Shown in pieces: positions 24,001 through 30,000 of a stretch of 64,000 nucleotides of DNA (positions within the stretch are counted from its first letter, which is position 1; every line of letters starts with the position of its first letter). Source of the stretch: Candidatus Babeliales bacterium (GTDB lineage Bacteria > Babelota > Babeliae > Babelales > Vermiphilaceae); the NCBI GenBank assembly GCA_963743635.1, contig CAVUQO010000003.1, positions 640,001-704,000 on the forward strand, written 5' to 3'. Made by a program: the position numbers.

Positions 24001-27000
24001 AGATGCTAAAGCACCAACAATCGCCGCTATATTATGCCGACCACGCCCAATAAAATCCTTGCATCTGAGCTTTTCAATATGCCAATCTGGATAAAAATGC
24101 AAGGCAAAAAATAGTGATTTTGCCTAAATCATTCCTAAAAGGAAAATGAAATATGAAGAAAATGATAACGATTGTGGTGTTGATATTGGGGTTTTTGACG
24201 TGGCGCATGGGGGCTATGGAGGCACAAGCTGAAGCGGAGGCTGGAGATGTAATGCTGCAGACGAATGATGGTCAACTCGTATCTATCAGTAGAAAGGATG
24301 CAAGATGTTTCCCTACGATTATTGATGCAGTAAGCATATTGAGCACAGATGAGCCAATTCCAGTGAATGTTACGCAACCCGTCTTGCAGCGTCTGCTTCA
24401 AGATTTAGATTGGGTCAGAGCAGTATGTAATGAGAGGCGCCCAGATGAAACAGAACAGCAATGTGCAGAACGAGCTGCACGAGCATTACCTCCATCGGCG
24501 TATGTCTATTCTGATAATAGTATGCGCAGAACATTCGAAAATTTAGCAGCAGCCCATTATTTAGGATCATTGGAATTGCAAGAACGATATGCCCGCATCC
24601 TTGCAGGAATGCTCGTATCTGATCAATCATTAGCACTATTATACAGCAACAATCCTGCTCATATTGCATTTATTCAAAAGATTGAGCCACTGCGGGGTGA
24701 TGGTGATCAAAAGGTATATGCAGAAAATCGTAATGCTGGTGCATTTCATATTTTTGCGCGATTGATTTACAAATATATTCCAGAAATTGAGGTATGGGCA
24801 CAGAGTTCCATGCTTCCACATAAAAGAGTGGTTTTAGCCGCATCTTTTTCGCCCGATAGTGCCAAAGTAGCAACTGCGGCTGATGATAATAGTATACGTA
24901 TATGGAATGCAGATCTGGCTACGATGTTGTTCGTATTACGAGGACATTCGGCTGCTATTCATTCAGTATCCTTTTCTCCAGCTGGGGATAAGGTTGTATC
25001 AGCTGCGAGTGATAATTTAGCGAAAATATGGGATGTAAATACGGGGACATTATTGCGTACATTAAAGGGGCATGCTGGTGTGGTTGCATCAGCATCATTT
25101 TCGCCCGATGGTACTCAGGTGGTGACTGCGTCTGACGACGGAACTGTGCGTCTATGGGATGCAAATACGGGTGCATCATTGCGTACGTTGCAGGGGCATC
25201 AGGGACATAGTTATGGTGCTTATGTGATTTTTTCAGCACAATTTTCACCGGATGGTAGTAGGGTGGTGACTGCATCCAGTGATCGAGAGGCAAAGATATG
25301 GGATGCAAATACGGGTGCGTTATTGCGTACGTTACAGGGACATAGGGATTTGGTTAGATCAGCACAATTTTCACCGAACGGTATGAGGGTGGTGACTGCG
25401 TCCGGTGATCGAGAGGCAAAGATATGGAATGCAAATACGGGTGCGTTATTGCATACCTTGAGGGGGCATGTTGCTCAGGTTAGATCAGCATCATTCTCGC
25501 CCGATGGCACTGAGGTGGTGACTGCGTCTGACGACGGAACTGTGCGTCTATGGGATGCAAATAATGGGGCGTTATTGCGTACGTTGGAGGGGCATACCGA
25601 TTGGGTTCTATCCGCATCCTTTTCACCGGATGGCAATAAGGTGGTGACTGCGTCATGTGATAGAACGGCGCGCATATGGAGACCAATTCGGGCGGACAGT
25701 TTTGATCAGGCGTTATTTATTCATATGTTACGATGGGCACAGCGTAATAATAAACCAGTAGGCTGGCAAACAGGATGGGGACGTATGGTAATGGATACGT
25801 ATAATCCCGATGTTGAAGCCATGATCAAAGAGGCATTCCCTAAATCATTGATGGAGAAAATGAACGAAAAAGTGGGCAGATTATTTAGGTAGTACATATA
25901 TTTTACATCACGAAATTCAAAAGGGTCTCTTAATCGGGGCCCTTTTTATTATGATGTTAAAGCGCCAACAATCGCCGCTATATTATGCCGACCATGCCCA
26001 ATAAAATCCTTGCGTCTGAGCTTTTCAATATGCCAATCTGGATAAAAATGCAAGGCGAAAATAGTGATTTTGTCTAAATCATTCCTAAAAGGAGAATGGA
26101 ATATGAAGAAAATGATAATGATTGTGGTATTGGCGTTGGGTTCTTTGACGTGGCGCATGGGGGCTATGGAGGCACAAGCTGAAGCGGAGGCTGGAGATGT
26201 AATGCTGCAGACGAATGATGGTCAACTCGTATCTATCAGTAGAAAGGATGCAAGATGTTTTCCTACGATTATTGATGCAGTAAGCATATTGAGCACAGAT
26301 GAGCCAATTCCAGTGAATGTTATGCAACCCGTCTTGCAGCGTCTGCTTCAAGATTTAGATTGGGTCAGAGCAGTATGTAATGAGAGGCGCCCAGATGAAA
26401 CAGAACAGCAATGTGCAGAACGAGCTGCACGAGCATTACCTCCATCGGCGTATGTCTATTCTGATAATAGTATGCGCATAACATTCGAAAATCTAGCAGC
26501 AGCCCATTATTTAGGATCATTGGAATTGCAAGAACGATATGCCCGCATCCTTGCAGGAATGCTCGTATCTGATCAATCATTAGCACTATTATACAGCAAC
26601 AATCCTGCTCATATTGCATTTATTCAAAAGATTGAGCCACTGCGGGGTGATGGTGATCAAAAGGTATATGCAGAAAATCGTAATGCTGGTCCATTAAATG
26701 TTTTTGCGAAATTAATCTATAAATATTTTTCACACGGAGAAGTATGGGAGCGGCGTGTATTTTTCAGAGCGCATACGAATAAGATTTATTCACTATCATT
26801 TTCATTGGATGGCGCTCGGGTGGTGACTGCATCTGGTGATCGAACGGCAAAGATATGGGATGCAAATAGTGGGGCGTTATTGCATACATTGCAGGGGCCT
26901 CATGGGCATACTGATTTTGTTTATTCAGCATCATTTTCACCGAATGGCGATCGGGTGGTGACTGCATCTCGTGATCGAATGGCAAAGATATGGGATGCAA

Positions 27001-30000
27001 ATAGTGGCGCGTTATTGCATACATTGCAGGGGCATACTAATCTGATTGTTTCAGCATCATTTTCACCGGACGGTAGTAGGGTGGTGACTGCGTCCAGTGA
27101 TCGAACAGCAAAGATATGGGATGCAAATAGTGGCGCGTTATTGTGTACCTTGCAGGGACATAGACATGAGGTTCGTCCAGCATCATTTTCATCGGATGGC
27201 ACTCGGGTGGTGACTGCATCTGGTGATCGAACGGCAAAGATATGGGATGCAAATAGTGGGGCGTTATTGCATACATTGCAGGGGCATACTGATTTGGTTT
27301 ATTCAGCATCATTTTCACCGAATGGCGATAGGGTGGTGACTGCATCTGGTGATCGAACGGCAAAGATATGGGATGCAAATAGTGGGGCGTTATTGCATAC
27401 ATTGCAGGGGCCTCAAGGGCATACTGATTTGATTTATTCAGCATCATTTTCACCGAATGGCGATAGGGTGGTGACTGCATCTCGTGATCGAATGGCAAAG
27501 ATATGGGATGCAAATAGTGGGGTGTTAGTGCATACATTGCAGGGGCATACTAATCTGATTGTTTCAGCAACATTTTCACCGGACGGTAGTAGGGTGGTGA
27601 CTGTGTCCAGTGATGGAACGGCACGCATATGGAATGCAAATAGTGGGGAGTTATTGGATACATTGCAGGGGAATGTAGCATCATTTTCACCGGATGGCAC
27701 TCGAGTGGCGACTGCGTCTAATGATGGAATGGTGCGCATATGGAGATCAATTCCGACGGACAGTTTTGATCGGGCATTATTTATTTGTATGTTGCGGTGG
27801 GCACAGCGTAATAATAAGCCAGTGGGCTGGCAAACGGAATGGGGGCGTATGGTAATGGATACGTATAATCCCGATGTTGAAGCCATGATCAAACAGGCAT
27901 TCCCTAAATCGTTGACGGAGAAATTGAAGGAAAAAGTGGGCGAATTATTTAAGTAGTGCGTATATTTTACATCACGCAATTCAGCATTAATTTAAAATGC
28001 CGGCTGGGATAAAAGGAGAATGGTCCATGAAGAAAATGATAACGATTGCGGTGTTGGCGTTGGGCTCTTTGACGTGGCGCATGGGGGCAATGCAGCAACC
28101 AGCCAAAGCGGCGGTTAGAGAAGTAATACTGCAGACGAATGATGGTCAAGAAGTGAGCATGAGTGAGGCTGATGCAAGACTTTTTGGCACGATTAGAGAT
28201 GTAATAGATGAGTGTGGCAATGAGCAACCAATTCCACTCAGTAATGTTTCACTCGTAGTATTGCGGCGTCTGCTTGCTGATATACCGTGGGCGAGAGAAA
28301 CGCGTATTGGTAGACAAGCGCATGAAACTGAAGAGCAATGTGCAGAGCGAGCTGCAGGAGCATTGCCGGCATCGGGTTATTCTGTTGATGGTCTGCGCCA
28401 AGCAAGGGAAAATTTCGAGGCTGCTCGCTATTTGCTATCGCCTGAATTGATGGAGAGATATGCACGCATTGTTGCGGGTATGTTAGCATCAGATCAATCA
28501 TTAGCATTATTGTATAACAACGATTCTGCATGCATCGCATTGATTAACAATATTGGGGCTGACGATGTTTTTGCGAGATGGATTTGTAAACACCTTCCAC
28601 ATGTATGGGGGCAGCAGCTTGTGCTTCAGGATACAAGTGCGGTTTATTCAGCTTCATTTTCACCGAATGGCAATAGGGTGGTGACTGCATGTGATGAGGG
28701 AACGGCAAAGATATGGGATGTAAATAGGGGGGCGTTATTGCATACATTGCAGGGGCATACTGATGTGGTTAGATCAGCATCATTTTCACCGGATGGAAGT
28801 AGGGTGGTAACTGCGTCCAATGATCAAACGGCAAAGATATGGAATGCAAATAATGGGGCGTTATTGCATACCTTGCAGGCACCTCAGGGGCATGCTTGGC
28901 GGGTTAATTCAGCATCATTTTCACCAGATGGTAGTAGGGTGGTGACTGCGTCCAGTGATCGAACGGCAAAGATATGGGATGCAAATAGTGGAGGGTTATT
29001 GCGTACATTGCAGTGGGCTCAGGGGAATACTAATTGGTATGATAATTCGATTAATTCAGCATCATTTTCATGGGATGGCAATAGGGTGGTGACTGCGTCT
29101 AATGATAGAACGGCAAAGATATGGAATGCAAATAGTGGGGAGGTATTGCGTACATTGCGGGGCCATAACGCTGCGGTTTATTCAGCATCATTTTCACGGG
29201 ATGGCAATAGGGTGGTGACTGCGTCTGTTGATGGAACGGCAAGGATATGGAATGCAAATAATGGGGACTTATTGCATAGATTGGGGGAGGATCCTGAGGG
29301 ACATTTTGGGTGGGTGCCTGTTTATTCAGCATCATTTTCACCGGATGGCACTCGGGTGGTGACTGCGTCTCGTGATCGAATGGCAAAGATATGGAATGCA
29401 AATAGTGGGGATTTATTGGATACATTGCATGGGCATACTGATCTGGTTAGATCAGCATCATTTTCACCGGATGGCACTCGGGTGCTGACTGCATCTTTTG
29501 ATGGAACGGCACGCATATGGCAATCGACTTGGACGGACAATTTTGATCAGGCGTTATTTATTCATATGTTACGATGGGCACAGCGTAATAATAAGCCAGT
29601 AGGCTGGCAAACAGGATGGGGACGTATGGTTATGGATACGTATAATTTTCATGATCAAGAGTTGATCAAACAGGCATTTCCTCAATCATTGATGGAGAAA
29701 TTGAAGGAAAGAGTCGGCAGATTATTTAAGTAGTATGTATATTTTACATCACGAATTTCAAAAGGGTCTCTTAATCGGGGCCCTTTTTGTTATGATGCTA
29801 AAGCGCCAATAATCACCGCTATATTATGCCGCACCATTCCAATATAGGTATCAGCACCACTGCCGACTGGGCCGAGGGCATCTGAATAAAGTTGATCGCC
29901 GATCTTAACTTCAAACTCCCGTGCACGAGCTGCTTGCTGGACTGCCTGAATATTGCGTTCAGGAATGGAAGCTTCTACGAATAATGCGCGTACTTTATTG

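What a model noticed while it worked through the whole genome (the two positions that open the first line are those of the whole stretch)
24153..29733. About 20 paralogs that fuse a Skp1-like domain to a WD40 propeller
About 20 genes (three in a row here, g01427-g01429; others at C2:1852-3777, C2:109192-114927, C2:213713-215560, C2:381419-383227, C3:2316-8173, C3:751807-753063, C3:795121-802725) encode a hydrophobic leader, a 165-aa domain that folds like eukaryotic Skp1 and a 7-bladed WD40 propeller in one chain. I read them as secreted single-chain mimics of the Skp1/F-box-WD40 substrate receptor that dock onto the amoebal host's cullin-1 and send chosen host proteins to ubiquitination without host Skp1 or an F-box. 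New: bacterial effectors copy F-box or U-box parts, not Skp1 itself fused to the propeller; it would also be a ready single-chain scaffold for targeted protein degradation.
Evidence so far: Pfam Skp1_POZ on g01429 (33-82, i-E 7.7e-7) and 7 WD40. An HMM of the N-domain from 18 paralogs finds 19 proteins at E<1e-40 and 21 at E<1e-29; all but g00739 (cut) and g00843 (sub-threshold propeller hits, call 124) have Pfam WD40 behind it. AlphaFold of residues 1-215: pLDDT 79, above 90 over 30-160; Foldseek against PDB: all 50 listed hits are Skp1/ASK1 chains, 25 at E<=1e-3, 134-185 columns, TM to target 0.53-0.74, 16-21% identity. Full-length model pLDDT 85. Skp1_POZ stands in 16 of 189,784 bacterial species genomes, 12 of them Babelales. 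The module was found in 2 of 30 other Babelales sampled, 23 places here. Four members end in a CaaX-type prenylation box. TM6 papers name WD40 and F-b [...]
(Added by a program. Inside this text positions count along the whole contig: contig position 640,001 is position 1 of the stretch shown here. "Call 12" and the like, gene names such as g00115 and contig names such as C1 are that model's own, and its searches are not shown. The text may have been shortened before it was handed on; [...] marks where a part breaks off. The agent that wrote the report below was given it as the finding of a first reader that could run no searches.)

Follow-up and report, generated by a model that had tools for sequence, protein, structure and literature searches.

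The report
Skp1-derived WD40 effector gene family
A small bacterium that lives inside protists carries about twenty genes that join a copy of the eukaryotic ubiquitin-ligase adaptor Skp1 to a target-binding WD40 ring in one exported protein, probably to steer host protein destruction, though binding to the host ligase is untested.

Summary
Window 24153-25892, 26103-27956 and 28027-29733 (+) encode three paralogs, each with a hydrophobic leader, a Skp1-like BTB/POZ domain, a 7-8-repeat WD40 propeller and a conserved 55-70 aa helical tail. The 1.45 Mb genome holds 21 such ORFs.

Homology to Skp1 is real. A profile of 18 N-domains hits only Skp1 chains in its top 33 PDB rows (best E 2.2e-7). The AF2 model's three best structural matches are Skp1 (Z 11.0, 10.1, 9.1), followed by generic BTB domains (Z under 9).

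New here:
- The tail is predicted to dock on the helices that stand where Skp1's F-box-binding helices lie (ipSAE 0.65, best control 0.00).
- Variation in the WD40 repeats sits at three positions, which I recall as the top-face positions.
- Relatives carry LRRs instead of WD40.

Corrections:
- Pfam Skp1_POZ is not rare. It passes its cut-off in 45 of 261 genomes of the phylum, all in the window's order (Babeliales).
- The Cul1-contact motifs are degraded in this genome's family: strict PxPN in 0 of 20, the Asn-Tyr pair in 1 of 20.
- BTB-LRR families in amoeba chlamydiae and eukaryotic BTB-Kelch adaptors already embody the single-chain idea.

Cullin binding stays untested. Verdict: a new variant of a known kind.

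The parts
24153..25892 (+). Paralog 1 (579 aa): leader, Skp1-like domain, 7 WD40 repeats, C-terminal tail
   Evidence: ORF. Pfam WD40 with 7 stretches, E 4e-74. N-domain 59% identical to paralog 3. AGGAA box 8 nt before the ATG.
26103..27956 (+). Paralog 2 (617 aa from MKKM): same build with 8 WD40 repeats
   Evidence: ORF. Pfam WD40 with 8 stretches, E 4e-80. AGGAG box 8 nt before the ATG at 26103. Against paralog 1: N-domain 93%, propeller 52%, tail 84% identical.
28027..29733 (+). Paralog 3 (568 aa from MKKM): the member that was modelled
   Evidence: ORF. Pfam WD40 with 7 stretches. AGGAG box at 28014-28018. Full-length AF2 pLDDT 89.4, pTM 0.83.
28027..28092 (+). Hydrophobic leader of paralog 3 (residues 1-22, MKKMITIAVLALGSLTWRMGAM)
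   Evidence: pLDDT under 50 over residues 1-27/28. A21 and M22 are invariant in 18 paralogs. The same kind of leader ending in A-M-[EQ] occurs on 44 ORFs of the genome by my pattern.
28117..28485 (+). Skp1-like BTB/POZ core of paralog 3 (residues 31-153)
   Evidence: Pfam Skp1_POZ at 33-82. The profile of 18 paralogs aligns positions 28-154 to Skp1 residues 5-129, E 2.2e-7. VIA-align: Z 11.0 to 1ldk_D, model 31-174 against Skp1 2-140.
28486..28605 (+). Junction helices of paralog 3 (residues 154-193), at the place of Skp1's C-terminal helices
   Evidence: Helices at 156-163, 167-178 and 180-188. They form the predicted interface with the C-tail: residues 153-194. The conserved residues S155, S158, L162, P191 and W194 lie in or beside this stretch. 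No Pfam Skp1 C-terminal domain or F-box was found here.
28606..29526 (+). Seven-bladed WD40 propeller of paralog 3 (residues 194-500)
   Evidence: Strands 194-500 in the model. VIA-align: Z 48.7 and 48.2 to the 7-bladed designer propeller 7big_A and to the 'highly repetitive propeller structure' 2ymu_A, 43-44% identity.
29527..29730 (+). Conserved helical C-terminal tail of paralog 3 (residues 501-568)
   Evidence: Helices at 506-520, 530-536, 541-550 and 555-567. L, W, W and I are invariant across 17 paralogs. My tail HMM hits 38 of 46 relatives of 450 aa or more. Predicted to dock on residues 153-194.
29790..30722 (-). Flank: znuA-type periplasmic metal-binding protein
   Evidence: Pfam ZnuA, E 5.1e-78.
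21987..23940 (-). Flank: ABC-3 permease (21987-22838) and ABC ATPase (23179-23940) of the same transporter type
   Evidence: Pfam ABC-3, E 8.1e-66, and ABC_tran, E 3.6e-28.

Best explanation
These genes encode exported, host-directed proteins of an intracellular Babeliales (Dependentiae) bacterium. Each is a self-contained substrate receptor for a cullin-RING ubiquitin ligase.

Shown by computation:
- The N-domain descends from eukaryotic Skp1 (BTB/POZ core).
- It is followed by two or three helices, a 7-bladed propeller and a helical tail.
- The tail is predicted to fold back on those helices, so the propeller would be clamped to the Skp1-like domain from both of its ends. That is the job the F-box and linker do in Skp1/F-box-WD40 pairs.
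- Variation in the repeats is concentrated at three positions.

Inferred:
- The leader sends the protein through Sec and on through the type II-like secretin system or vesicles into the host cytoplasm. Some members are prenylated there.
- The Skp1-like face docks on the N-terminal repeat of host cullin-1.
- The propeller presents chosen host proteins for ubiquitination.
For: Skp1 homology:
- The profile of 18 N-domains against PDB sequences gave 48 rows at E<=1. The top 33 are all Skp1 (best E 2.2e-7, profile 28-154 against Skp1 5-129). Elongin C (13 rows) appears only at E 0.38-0.92.
- The same profile against 1.84 billion representatives gave 159 hits at E<=1e-3. Leader-bearing long proteins come first, then proteins of about 160 aa of Skp1 type.
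- Fold: the three best chains are Skp1, Z 11.0, 10.1 and 9.1. All 44 Foldseek rows listed come from Skp1-containing entries.

Clamp:
- N-domain 28-197 against the 72-aa tail scored ipSAE 0.65 (runs 0.62, 0.71, 0.65), with the best of 3 controls at 0.00.
- The mark was reached by 116 of 157 solved complexes and 2 of 215 mismatched pairs.
- The runs share at least 57% of contacts, and the partner's pLDDT is at least 55.
- The interface is residues 153-194 with tail residues 7-35. It includes the family-conserved L162, P191 and W194, and the tail's L14, W21 and W35.
- Full-length pTM is 0.83.

Receptor-like variation:
- In 122 repeats, entropy is 3.35, 3.73 and 3.66 bits at positions 4, 6 and 22. 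Conserved scaffold positions such as H1, V5, S7, S11, D23 and I28 lie at 0.07-0.5 bits.
- Paralogs 1 and 2 are 93% identical in the N-domain, 84% in the tail and 52% in the propeller.
- Relatives carry LRRs behind Skp1_POZ: 4 of the 23 proteins scanned. WD40 and LRR are the two classic F-box partner classes.

Host side:
- CaaX-type ends occur on 4 family ORFs and on 8 of the 81 best relatives, own proteins included.
- The genome has no cullin and no F-box at E<=0.01, so no bacterial partner is in sight.
- It has 2 secretins and 2 T2SSE ATPases.
- Passages read in PMC6561590: a cultured Babeliales lies in the host cytoplasm, and 78% of its ankyrin proteins carry signal peptides.
Against: - No cullin could be tested.
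- The Skp1 'PxPN' motif, said to touch Cul1 (PMC1257465, passage), is strict in 0 of 20 paralogs. P-L-x-N occurs in 5 and P-V-N in 2.
- Of the H5 Asn-Tyr pair, whose mutation abolishes Cul1 binding (bioRxiv 10.1101/2023.05.13.540652, passage), Asn is kept in 1 of 20. Tyr is kept in 13 and Phe replaces it in 7.
- The Pfam Skp1 C-terminal domain was not found in 18 N-domains at E<=10, nor in 5 relatives at E<=1.
- Generic BTB domains follow Skp1 closely in the fold search, at Z 8.9-8.0.
- The propeller is closest to 2ymu ('highly repetitive propeller structure', 43% identity) and a 7-bladed designer propeller, with WDR5 at about 32%. No entry titled as an F-box protein is among the 50 rows.
- The leader could be a membrane anchor.
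- Only a minority of members have CaaX.
- The docking test split one chain in two and used my own alignments, so its calibration holds only roughly.
Confidence: 0.45

Rival explanations
1. Binder or decoy without ligase activity. The proteins reach the host but act by sequestering host proteins on the propeller, or by blocking a cullin. The Skp1-derived domain serves only as a stable cap or oligomerisation module.
For: - The Cul1-contact motifs are degraded in this genome's family: PxPN in 0 of 20, Asn of the Asn-Tyr pair in 1 of 20.
- BTB folds serve many non-cullin roles (PMC1257465, passages).
- Propeller variation fits any binder.
Against: - The BTB/POZ core is kept as a confident fold, pLDDT above 90 over most of residues 30-160.
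- The aromatic residue of the H5 pair is kept in 20 of 20. P70, which aligns with the first Pro of the Skp1 motif, is kept in at least 90% of 34 aligned sequences.
- Relatives in other genomes keep PLPN/PVPN (2 of 5) and NYLD (4 of 5).
Confidence: 0.2
2. The same receptor idea but with another cullin. The domain behaves like a BTB plus 3-box adaptor and binds Cul3, or a lineage-specific cullin of the protist host, rather than Cul1.
For: - VIA-align rows covering model residues up to 197 include SPOP BTB/3-box (Z 8.7), KLHL22-CUL3 (8.3), KEAP1 BTB/3-box with CUL3 (8.0) and vaccinia A55 BTB-BACK with Cullin-3 (7.6).
- Pfam BTB matched 3 of 18 N-domains at E<=10, best E 0.004.
- The Cul1 motifs are degraded.
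Against: - Sequence places it with Skp1. The top 33 PDB rows are Skp1 and no BTB-Cul3 adaptor appears at E<=1.
- Skp1_POZ matched 7 of 18 members against 3 of 18 for BTB.
- The three best structural matches are Skp1 chains.
Confidence: 0.12
3. An envelope or surface protein of the bacterium. The leader is a Sec signal or an anchor, and the protein works in the periplasm or on the cell surface, for instance as an adhesin or scaffold, and never meets host ubiquitin machinery.
For: - The hydrophobic leader is present on nearly all members.
- No dedicated injection signal is known.
- 44 ORFs of the genome share this kind of leader by my pattern, so it is a general export signal.
- The best propeller matches include a propeller of a prokaryotic protein (5yzv, Thermomonospora curvata, 34% identity).
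Against: - CaaX-type ends make sense only in a eukaryotic cytosol: 4 family ORFs and 8 of 81 relatives.
- The Skp1-type domain has no known bacterial partner, and the genome has no cullin or F-box.
- A cultured Babeliales lies free in the host cytoplasm (PMC6561590, passage), so export alone would reach the host.
Confidence: 0.13
4. A Skp1 mimic that captures host F-box proteins. The N-domain binds host F-boxes as Skp1 does, and the propeller brings in a second partner.
For: Homology to Skp1.
Against: - The Skp1 C-terminal F-box-binding domain (Pfam PF01466) was not detected in 18 own N-domains or in 5 relatives.
- The matching helices are predicted to be occupied in cis by the protein's own tail.
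Confidence: 0.05

Closest known systems
Eukaryotic Skp1 with F-box/WD40 receptors (beta-TrCP, Fbw7, Cdc4) in SCF ligases
   Same: - A Skp1-type BTB/POZ core: profile E 2.2e-7, Z 11.0 to Skp1 of the Cul1 complex.
- A 7-bladed WD40 ring held by a helical junction at the place of Skp1's C-terminal helices.
   Different: - One chain instead of two.
- No Pfam F-box and no Pfam Skp1 C-terminal domain.
- The junction is closed by a tail that follows the propeller.
- The Cul1 motifs are partly lost.
- The propeller's best matches are 2ymu and designer 7-bladed propellers.
- It carries an export leader.
BTB-BACK-Kelch and MATH-BTB adaptors of Cul3, and poxvirus BTB-Kelch proteins such as vaccinia A55
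   Same: Adaptor and receptor in one polypeptide: a BTB-fold domain, a helical connector and a beta-propeller. PMC1257465 and PMC4403949 (passages) describe these as the single-chain analogue of Skp1/F-box.
   Different: - The domain here is of the Skp1 branch, not the long dimeric BTB form.
- The propeller is WD40, not Kelch.
- There is an extra C-terminal clamp.
- The origin is bacterial.
PEX1 family of Protochlamydia (BTB-LRR, 73 members) and the F-box families of Neochlamydia (Domman et al. 2014, PMC4209131, passages read)
   Same: - Large, tandemly duplicated families in bacteria that live in amoebae.
- An N-terminal cullin-adaptor-type domain joined to a repeat domain.
- Read there as effectors that feed host proteins to ubiquitin ligases.
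   Different: - Another phylum.
- Pfam BTB there, not Skp1_POZ.
- LRR there, not WD40 (LRR variants of the present family do exist).
- Type III signals there, a Sec-type leader here.
- That paper calls Parachlamydiaceae the only prokaryotes known with BTB.
Legionella AnkB (F-box effector with a CaaX box)
   Same: A bacterial mimic of an SCF part that uses host prenylation (PMC2916131 and PMC2790608, seen in the search listing and abstract only).
   Different: AnkB copies the F-box and needs host Skp1. Here the Skp1 part itself is copied and fused to the receptor.
Highly repetitive WD40 propellers (PDB 2ymu, and the 7-bladed designer propellers 7big/7bie/7bif)
   Same: 43-44% identity, Z about 48, with near-identical blades. 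Variation is confined to a few positions.
   Different: Those entries, as titled, are propellers alone. Here the propeller carries a Skp1-like head, a tail and a leader.

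Membership tests
Skp1 family (SCF adaptor) | N-terminal BTB/POZ domain of Skp1 type (Pfam Skp1_POZ) | tested here: met
   - Paralog 3 scores 29.1 bits against a cut-off of 21.9.
- 7 of 18 paralog N-domains match at E<=10.
- With the profile, the top 33 PDB rows are Skp1.
- Z 11.0, 10.1 and 9.1 to Skp1 chains.
Skp1 family (SCF adaptor) | C-terminal Skp1 domain (Pfam PF01466) that binds the F-box | tested here: not met
   - Not among the 19 families matched by 18 N-domains at E<=10, nor in 5 relatives at E<=1.
- Helices do stand at that place: the model aligns up to residue 174 with Skp1 residue 140.
Skp1 family (SCF adaptor) | Cul1-contact signatures: 'PxPN' in strand B3 and the Asn-Tyr pair of helix H5 | tested here: not met
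   - Strict PxPN in 0 of 20 paralogs. P-L-x-N in 5 and P-V-N in 2.
- Asn-Tyr in 1 of 20. Tyr in 13, Phe in 7.
- The window genes read PLSN/RY and PV-N/HY.
- Relatives in other genomes keep PLPN/PVPN (2 of 5) and NY (4 of 5).
- The motifs are taken from passages of PMC1257465 and bioRxiv 10.1101/2023.05.13.540652.
Skp1 family (SCF adaptor) | Binds cullin-1 and F-box proteins | not testable with these tools
   No cullin or F-box protein sequence could be handed to the complex tool. The genome has none.
F-box/WD40 substrate receptors | F-box motif before the repeat domain | tested here: not met
   - Six-frame search of the genome with PF00646 and PF12937 gave 0 matches at E<=0.01.
- No F-box family was found in 18 N-domains with linker at E<=10, nor in 3 tails.
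F-box/WD40 substrate receptors | Seven-bladed WD40 propeller | tested here: met
   7-8 Pfam WD40 stretches. Model strands 194-500, Z 48.7 to a 7-bladed propeller.
BTB-type Cul3 adaptors | BTB fold followed by a 3-box/BACK helical extension | tested here: inconclusive
   - Z 8.7 to SPOP BTB/3-box and 8.0 to KEAP1 BTB/3-box over model residues up to 191-197.
- Pfam BTB in 3 of 18, best E 0.004.
- Skp1 scores higher in every test.
Eukaryote-like cullin-adaptor effector families of protist-associated bacteria | Adaptor-type domain plus repeat domain, expanded in tandem arrays in a host-dependent bacterium | tested here: met
   - 21 ORFs in 1.45 Mb, in arrays of 3 to 5.
- Arrays in other genomes of the order: 9 hits at G122 904-918 kb and 5 at G121 405-412 kb.
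- Record titles of relatives read Candidatus Babeliales.
Eukaryote-like cullin-adaptor effector families of protist-associated bacteria | Delivery into the host cell | not testable with these tools
   Indirect only: the leader, 2 secretins and 2 T2SSE ATPases, and CaaX-type ends.

The most novel reading that the evidence does not exclude
Babeliales have turned Skp1 itself into a modular, exported 'degrader' chassis. A Skp1-derived head plugs straight into host cullin-1. A private C-terminal pseudo-F-box clamps a recognition module to it, either a WD40 ring with hypervariable top-face residues or LRRs. Tandem duplication and module shuffling then generate libraries of receptors that need neither host Skp1 nor any F-box. 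This would be a natural single-chain SCF receptor built by a bacterium.
Probability: 0.35. Interest if true: 0.8.

Novelty: new variant of a known kind. Interest (0 to 1): 0.62.

Why it matters
- If the head binds a host cullin, this is the first bacterial family that copies the Skp1 adaptor rather than the F-box or U-box. It would also show how an F-box can be replaced by an unrelated helix that follows the propeller.
- It would give dozens of natural receptors whose targets mark what a protist parasite must destroy, and a compact one-chain scaffold for targeted-degradation work.
- Even if it does not bind a cullin, the family is a marker of Babeliales host manipulation. Pfam Skp1_POZ passes its cut-off in 45 of 261 genomes of the phylum.
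- I found no paper on it. Skp1 with Dependentiae gave 1 paper, unrelated by title and abstract. Skp1_POZ/PF03931 gave 15 papers, 11 listed, none on bacteria by title. Effector, BTB and Skp1 terms gave 58 papers, of which 15 were listed. bioRxiv supplements and subscription journals were not searchable.

Tried and rejected
- F-box helix 1 idea. I thought the linker motif before the propeller (L-P-x-x-L-x-x-H-I-x-K-x-M-P-x-x-x-I-W in some paralogs) might be a remnant of F-box helix 1. No Pfam F-box family matched 18 N-domains with linker at E<=10, nor the genome in six frames at E<=0.01. It is kept only as a visual resemblance.
- The search for related loci with alignments A1 and A4 gave an error: no stretch conserved enough. 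With the window protein alone it found 101 pattern matches but no relative. With one relative it found 4 loci, titled Candidatus Babeliales or uncultured bacterium.
- The word-based protein search found only 4 proteins, 3 of them the window's own.
- The ESM Atlas gave no usable hit for the tail. For the N-domain it gave only leads under 0.9: Skp1, Elongin C and BTB clusters, one of them mostly from giant viruses.
- Earlier findings of the scan: nothing.
- Papers searched for Skp1 residue numbers at the Cul1 face gave no residue list. I used the two motif statements from PMC1257465 and the bioRxiv preprint.
- The full-length fold search was filled by propellers and says nothing on the head or the tail.
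- The FastTree of 128 N-domains has 13 starred branches of 124. It is used only as a hint.
- A cullin complex could not be run.

Full report
**What is there**

The window holds three + strand genes in a row: 24153-25892, 26103-27956 and 28027-29733. Longer ORF readings of genes 2 and 3 start at 26064 and 27997. Each gene, however, has an AGGAA or AGGAG box 8 nt before the Met of M-K-K-M. The 60 nt before genes 1 and 2 are nearly the same. I therefore take 24153, 26103 and 28027 as the starts, giving 579, 617 and 568 aa.

The three genes lie between a znuA-type binding protein (29790-30722, - strand) and the ABC ATPase and ABC-3 permease of the same transporter type (23179-23940 and 21987-22838, - strand).

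Pfam gives 7, 8 and 7 WD40 stretches. On the N-terminal parts alone it gives Skp1_POZ only for the third gene: residues 33-82, E 1.1e-6, 29.1 bits against a cut-off of 21.9.

The genome is 1,454,283 bases in 3 contigs, 85% complete. It has 20 places that match the N-domain in six frames. A phmmer search of my own ORF set of 2,642 ORFs of 80 aa or more found 21 family ORFs, plus one protein that shares only the leader.
- Eighteen have the whole build.
- Three are cut: C3:751807-753063 ends inside the propeller, C3:1311-2162 is short, and C2:160-1698 lacks its head at a contig start.

**The head is a Skp1 homologue**

A profile of 18 N-domains (alignment A1) was searched against all PDB sequences and gave 48 rows at E<=1.
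- The top 33 are all Skp1. The best has E 2.2e-7, with profile positions 28-154 on Skp1 residues 5-129.
- Thirteen Elongin C rows follow at E 0.38-0.92, and two rows are unrelated.

The same profile was run against 1.84 billion representative proteins. It found 159 at E<=1e-3, 70 at E<=1e-10 and 21 at E<=1e-30. Long leader-bearing proteins come first. From about E 1e-7 on come proteins of about 160 aa without a leader, many ending like Skp1.

AF2 of residues 1-197 gave pLDDT 83.5 and pTM 0.77, with residues 1-27 disordered. In Foldseek, all 44 rows listed (ranks 1-50) are chains of 103-175 residues from Skp1/ASK1 entries. Fifteen are at E<=1e-3, with TM to target 0.54-0.74.

A search that does not lean on Foldseek put three Skp1 chains first.
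- 1ldk_D: Z 11.0, rmsd 3.6, 114 residues aligned, model 31-174 on Skp1 2-140.
- The next two Skp1 chains: Z 10.1 and 9.1.
- Generic BTB domains follow at Z 8.9 to 8.0, among them SPOP BTB/3-box, Elongin C, KLHL22 and KEAP1.

The fold alone therefore says BTB/POZ. Sequence and rank together say the Skp1 branch. The Pfam Skp1 C-terminal domain was not found in 18 own N-domains or in 5 relatives.

**The tail and the junction**

All subfamilies share a helical tail of 55-70 aa after the last blade, with invariant L, W, W and I. My HMM of the tail hits 38 of the 46 relatives of 450 aa or more among the 81 best profile hits, a set that includes the genome's own proteins.

The full-length model has pLDDT 89.4 and pTM 0.83. 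The propeller spans 194-500 and the tail helices lie at 506-520, 530-536, 541-550 and 555-567.

The tools give no coordinates, so I tested the packing by handing in the head (28-197) and the tail (72 aa) as two chains, each with its paralog alignment.
- ipSAE was 0.65 (runs 0.62, 0.71, 0.65) against a best control of 0.00.
- The mark was reached by 116 of 157 solved complexes and 2 of 215 mismatched pairs.
- The runs share at least 57% of contacts, and the partner's pLDDT is at least 55.
- The interface is head residues 153-194 with tail residues 7-35.
- It contains the conserved L162, P191 and W194 of the head and L14, W21 and W35 of the tail.

By the alignment to Skp1, head residues 153-174 stand where the end of the Skp1 core and its first extra helices lie. 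According to PMC1257465 (passages), these carboxy-terminal helices of Skp1 take the F-box.

My reading is that the tail is an F-box surrogate supplied in cis. Both ends of the propeller would then be tied to the Skp1-like head. This is a model's confidence on two pieces of one chain with my own alignments. It is not a measurement.

**The propeller**

The best matches are a 7-bladed designer propeller and 2ymu, titled 'a highly repetitive propeller structure' (Z 48.7 and 48.2, 43-44% identity). A propeller of a Thermomonospora protein follows at 34% identity and WDR5 at about 32%. No entry titled as an F-box protein is among the 50 rows.

In 122 repeats of 19 paralogs, conserved scaffold positions such as H1, V5, S7, S11, D23 and I28 lie at 0.07-0.5 bits. 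Positions 4, 6 and 22 reach 3.35, 3.73 and 3.66 bits. I recall these as the classic top-face contact positions of WD40 repeats. That label comes from memory, not from a call.

Paralogs 1 and 2 are 93% identical in the head and 84% in the tail, but only 52% in the propeller. Other pairs show the reverse, for example head 53%, propeller 75% and tail 83%, which suggests module shuffling.

**Leader, export and prenylation**

The leader is conserved: K/R, then 13-15 hydrophobic residues, then W-R-M-G-A-M-[EQ] or N-L-[HQ]-A-M-Q. By my loose pattern, 44 ORFs of the genome carry a leader ending in A-M-[EQ]. One is the window's 754-aa ORF at 31055-33319.

Almost the same leader (M-E-R-N-K-I-I ... A-W-R-M-G-A-M-E) heads a methyltransferase-domain protein next to the C2 array (L031). 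A very similar one (M-E-R-K-N-V-I ... V-W-R-M-G-A-M-Q) heads a 201-aa WD40-only protein (L033). The leader is therefore a general export signal of this organism. No signal-peptide predictor was available, so cleavage is inferred.

The genome has 2 secretins and 2 T2SSE-type ATPases. This agrees with the passage in PMC4776705 that type II secretion parts and two gspD copies are core to TM6.

Passages of PMC6561590 say three things about a cultured Babeliales. It lies in the host cytoplasm by 3 h, 44% of its proteins have signal peptides, and 78% of its ankyrin proteins do.

Four family ORFs end in CaaX-type boxes: CSLQ, CTIS and CSIL twice. Across all 2,642 ORFs, 24 end this way by a loose pattern, many of them doubtful ORFs. 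The two CSIL tails are near-copies. Eight of the 81 best relatives also end this way.

**Distribution**

The family profile matched 12 of 260 other genomes of the phylum at E<=1e-5. All are in the window's order, and some hold arrays: 9 hits at G122 904-918 kb and 5 at G121 405-412 kb.

Pfam Skp1_POZ matched 46 of 261 genomes at E<=1e-3, 45 of them over its cut-off (G000 included). All the genomes with a match are marked same family or same order as the window's, and none of the 14 control genomes matched. This contradicts the rarity stated in the finding.

Four complete proteins from four such genomes have a hydrophobic start, Skp1_POZ at 47-67 bits and WD40. Their heads read much more like Skp1: PIPLPN or PIPVPN in 2 of 5, and N-Y-L-D in 4 of 5.

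Record titles of such relatives read Candidatus Babeliales bacterium.

Of 23 profile hits that my repeat HMM did not call WD40, four have LRR families behind Skp1_POZ (P0099, P0120, P0129, P0143) and two have tandem Skp1_POZ (P0064, P0071).

I built a FastTree of 128 heads, with weak support (13 of 124 branches starred). One side holds 35 of the 36 short leaderless Skp1-type rows together with the strongly Skp1-like Babeliales rows. The other side holds the window's family, whose 11 rows fall in several groups mixed with metagenome relatives. This hints that the subfamilies are older than this genome.

**Cul1-contact residues**

PMC1257465 (passage) says the 'PxPN' motif of Skp1 strand B3 takes part in Cul1 contacts. 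The bioRxiv preprint 10.1101/2023.05.13.540652 (passage) says that mutating two H5 residues of human Skp1 abolishes Cul1 binding. The worm equivalents are an Asn-Tyr pair.

In the 20 aligned paralogs:
- Strict PxPN occurs in 0.
- P-L-x-N occurs in 5 and P-V-N in 2.
- The Asn is kept in 1.
- The Tyr is kept in 13, and Phe replaces it in 7.

P70, which aligns with the first Pro of the Skp1 motif, is at least 90% conserved in 34 aligned sequences. Cullin-1 docking is therefore plausible for the wider Babeliales superfamily but uncertain for this genome's branch.

**Mechanism and rivals**

My best reading, at 0.45, is an exported single-chain cullin-RING substrate receptor.
- Shown by computation: the Skp1 ancestry, the one-chain build, the predicted clamp and the pattern of variation.
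- Inferred: export to the host cytoplasm, prenylation, cullin docking and ubiquitination.

The rivals are:
- a binder or decoy without ligase activity (0.2);
- the same idea on Cul3 or another cullin (0.12);
- an envelope protein of the bacterium (0.13);
- a Skp1 mimic that captures host F-box proteins (0.05), made less likely by the occupied helices.

**Comparison and novelty**

It works like Skp1 plus an F-box/WD40 receptor, and like BTB-BACK-Kelch adaptors, which are already single chains (PMC1257465 and PMC4403949, passages).

In bacteria, the nearest described thing is the BTB-LRR family PEX1 of Protochlamydia, together with the F-box families of Neochlamydia (PMC4209131, passages). That paper states that Parachlamydiaceae were the only prokaryotes known with BTB.

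It is not a member of the Skp1 family in the strict sense. The C-terminal domain and the Cul1 motifs fail the test, and it is fused.

I found no paper that describes Skp1-type domains in Dependentiae. I rate it a new variant of a known kind.

**Limits**
- No cullin was tested.
- There was no signal-peptide predictor.
- I had no coordinates of the models.
- Taxon labels of metagenome proteins are unknown.
- Only the window's phylum (261 genomes) was scanned with each profile.

Noticed in passing
window 31055-33319 (+); genome-wide: By a loose pattern, 44 ORFs of the genome start with K/R, a hydrophobic run and then A-M-[EQ]. One is this 754-aa window ORF, which has no Pfam family. If cleavage falls after the Ala, the mature proteins would begin Met-Glu or Met-Gln. 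This looks like a lineage-specific export signal.
   Followed up: partly
L031 (G000:C2:115078-115737) and L033 (G000:C3:33232-33837): Almost the same leader as in part of the family (M-E-R-N-K-I-I ... A-W-R-M-G-A-M-E) heads a 219-aa methyltransferase-domain protein just after the C2 array. A very similar one (M-E-R-K-N-V-I ... V-W-R-M-G-A-M-Q) heads a 201-aa protein of 4 WD40 repeats without the Skp1-like head.
   Followed up: partly
window 21987-30722: The three + strand paralogs sit inside a - strand Zn/Mn-type ABC transporter cluster, between znuA and the ATPase and permease genes. This looks like an insertion into an operon.
   Followed up: no
window 24090-24152 and 26040-26102: About 60 nt upstream of genes 1 and 2 are nearly identical, so the duplication carried the 5' region. 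The heads are 93% identical while the propellers are 52% identical.
   Followed up: partly
window 24955-25308, 27037-27537, 27434-27979, 28238-28540, 29099-29425 (-): ORFs of 100-181 aa lie on the opposite strand of the WD40 genes, with repeated words such as H-Y-L-H-P-I-S-L-P-F-D-H. They mirror the repeats and are most likely not genes.
   Followed up: no
L032 (G000:C3:132897-135701) and L034 (G000:C3:128320-130419): Next to the divergent family member that ends in CTIS lie two leader-bearing proteins with weak propeller hits and no Skp1-like head. One of them ends in CIIS.
   Followed up: partly
proteins P0004, P0016, P0018, P0027, P0028, P0034, P0063 and others: Several metagenome relatives end in runs of Asn or Ser. 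Such runs are common in some amoebal proteomes (recalled). The meaning is unknown.
   Followed up: no
proteins P0064 (778 aa) and P0071 (407 aa): Relatives with two Skp1_POZ stretches in one chain and no repeat domain found by Pfam.
   Followed up: no
window 22835-23182 (-): A 115-aa ORF between the permease and ATPase genes has no Pfam family. It may be non-coding spacer.
   Followed up: no
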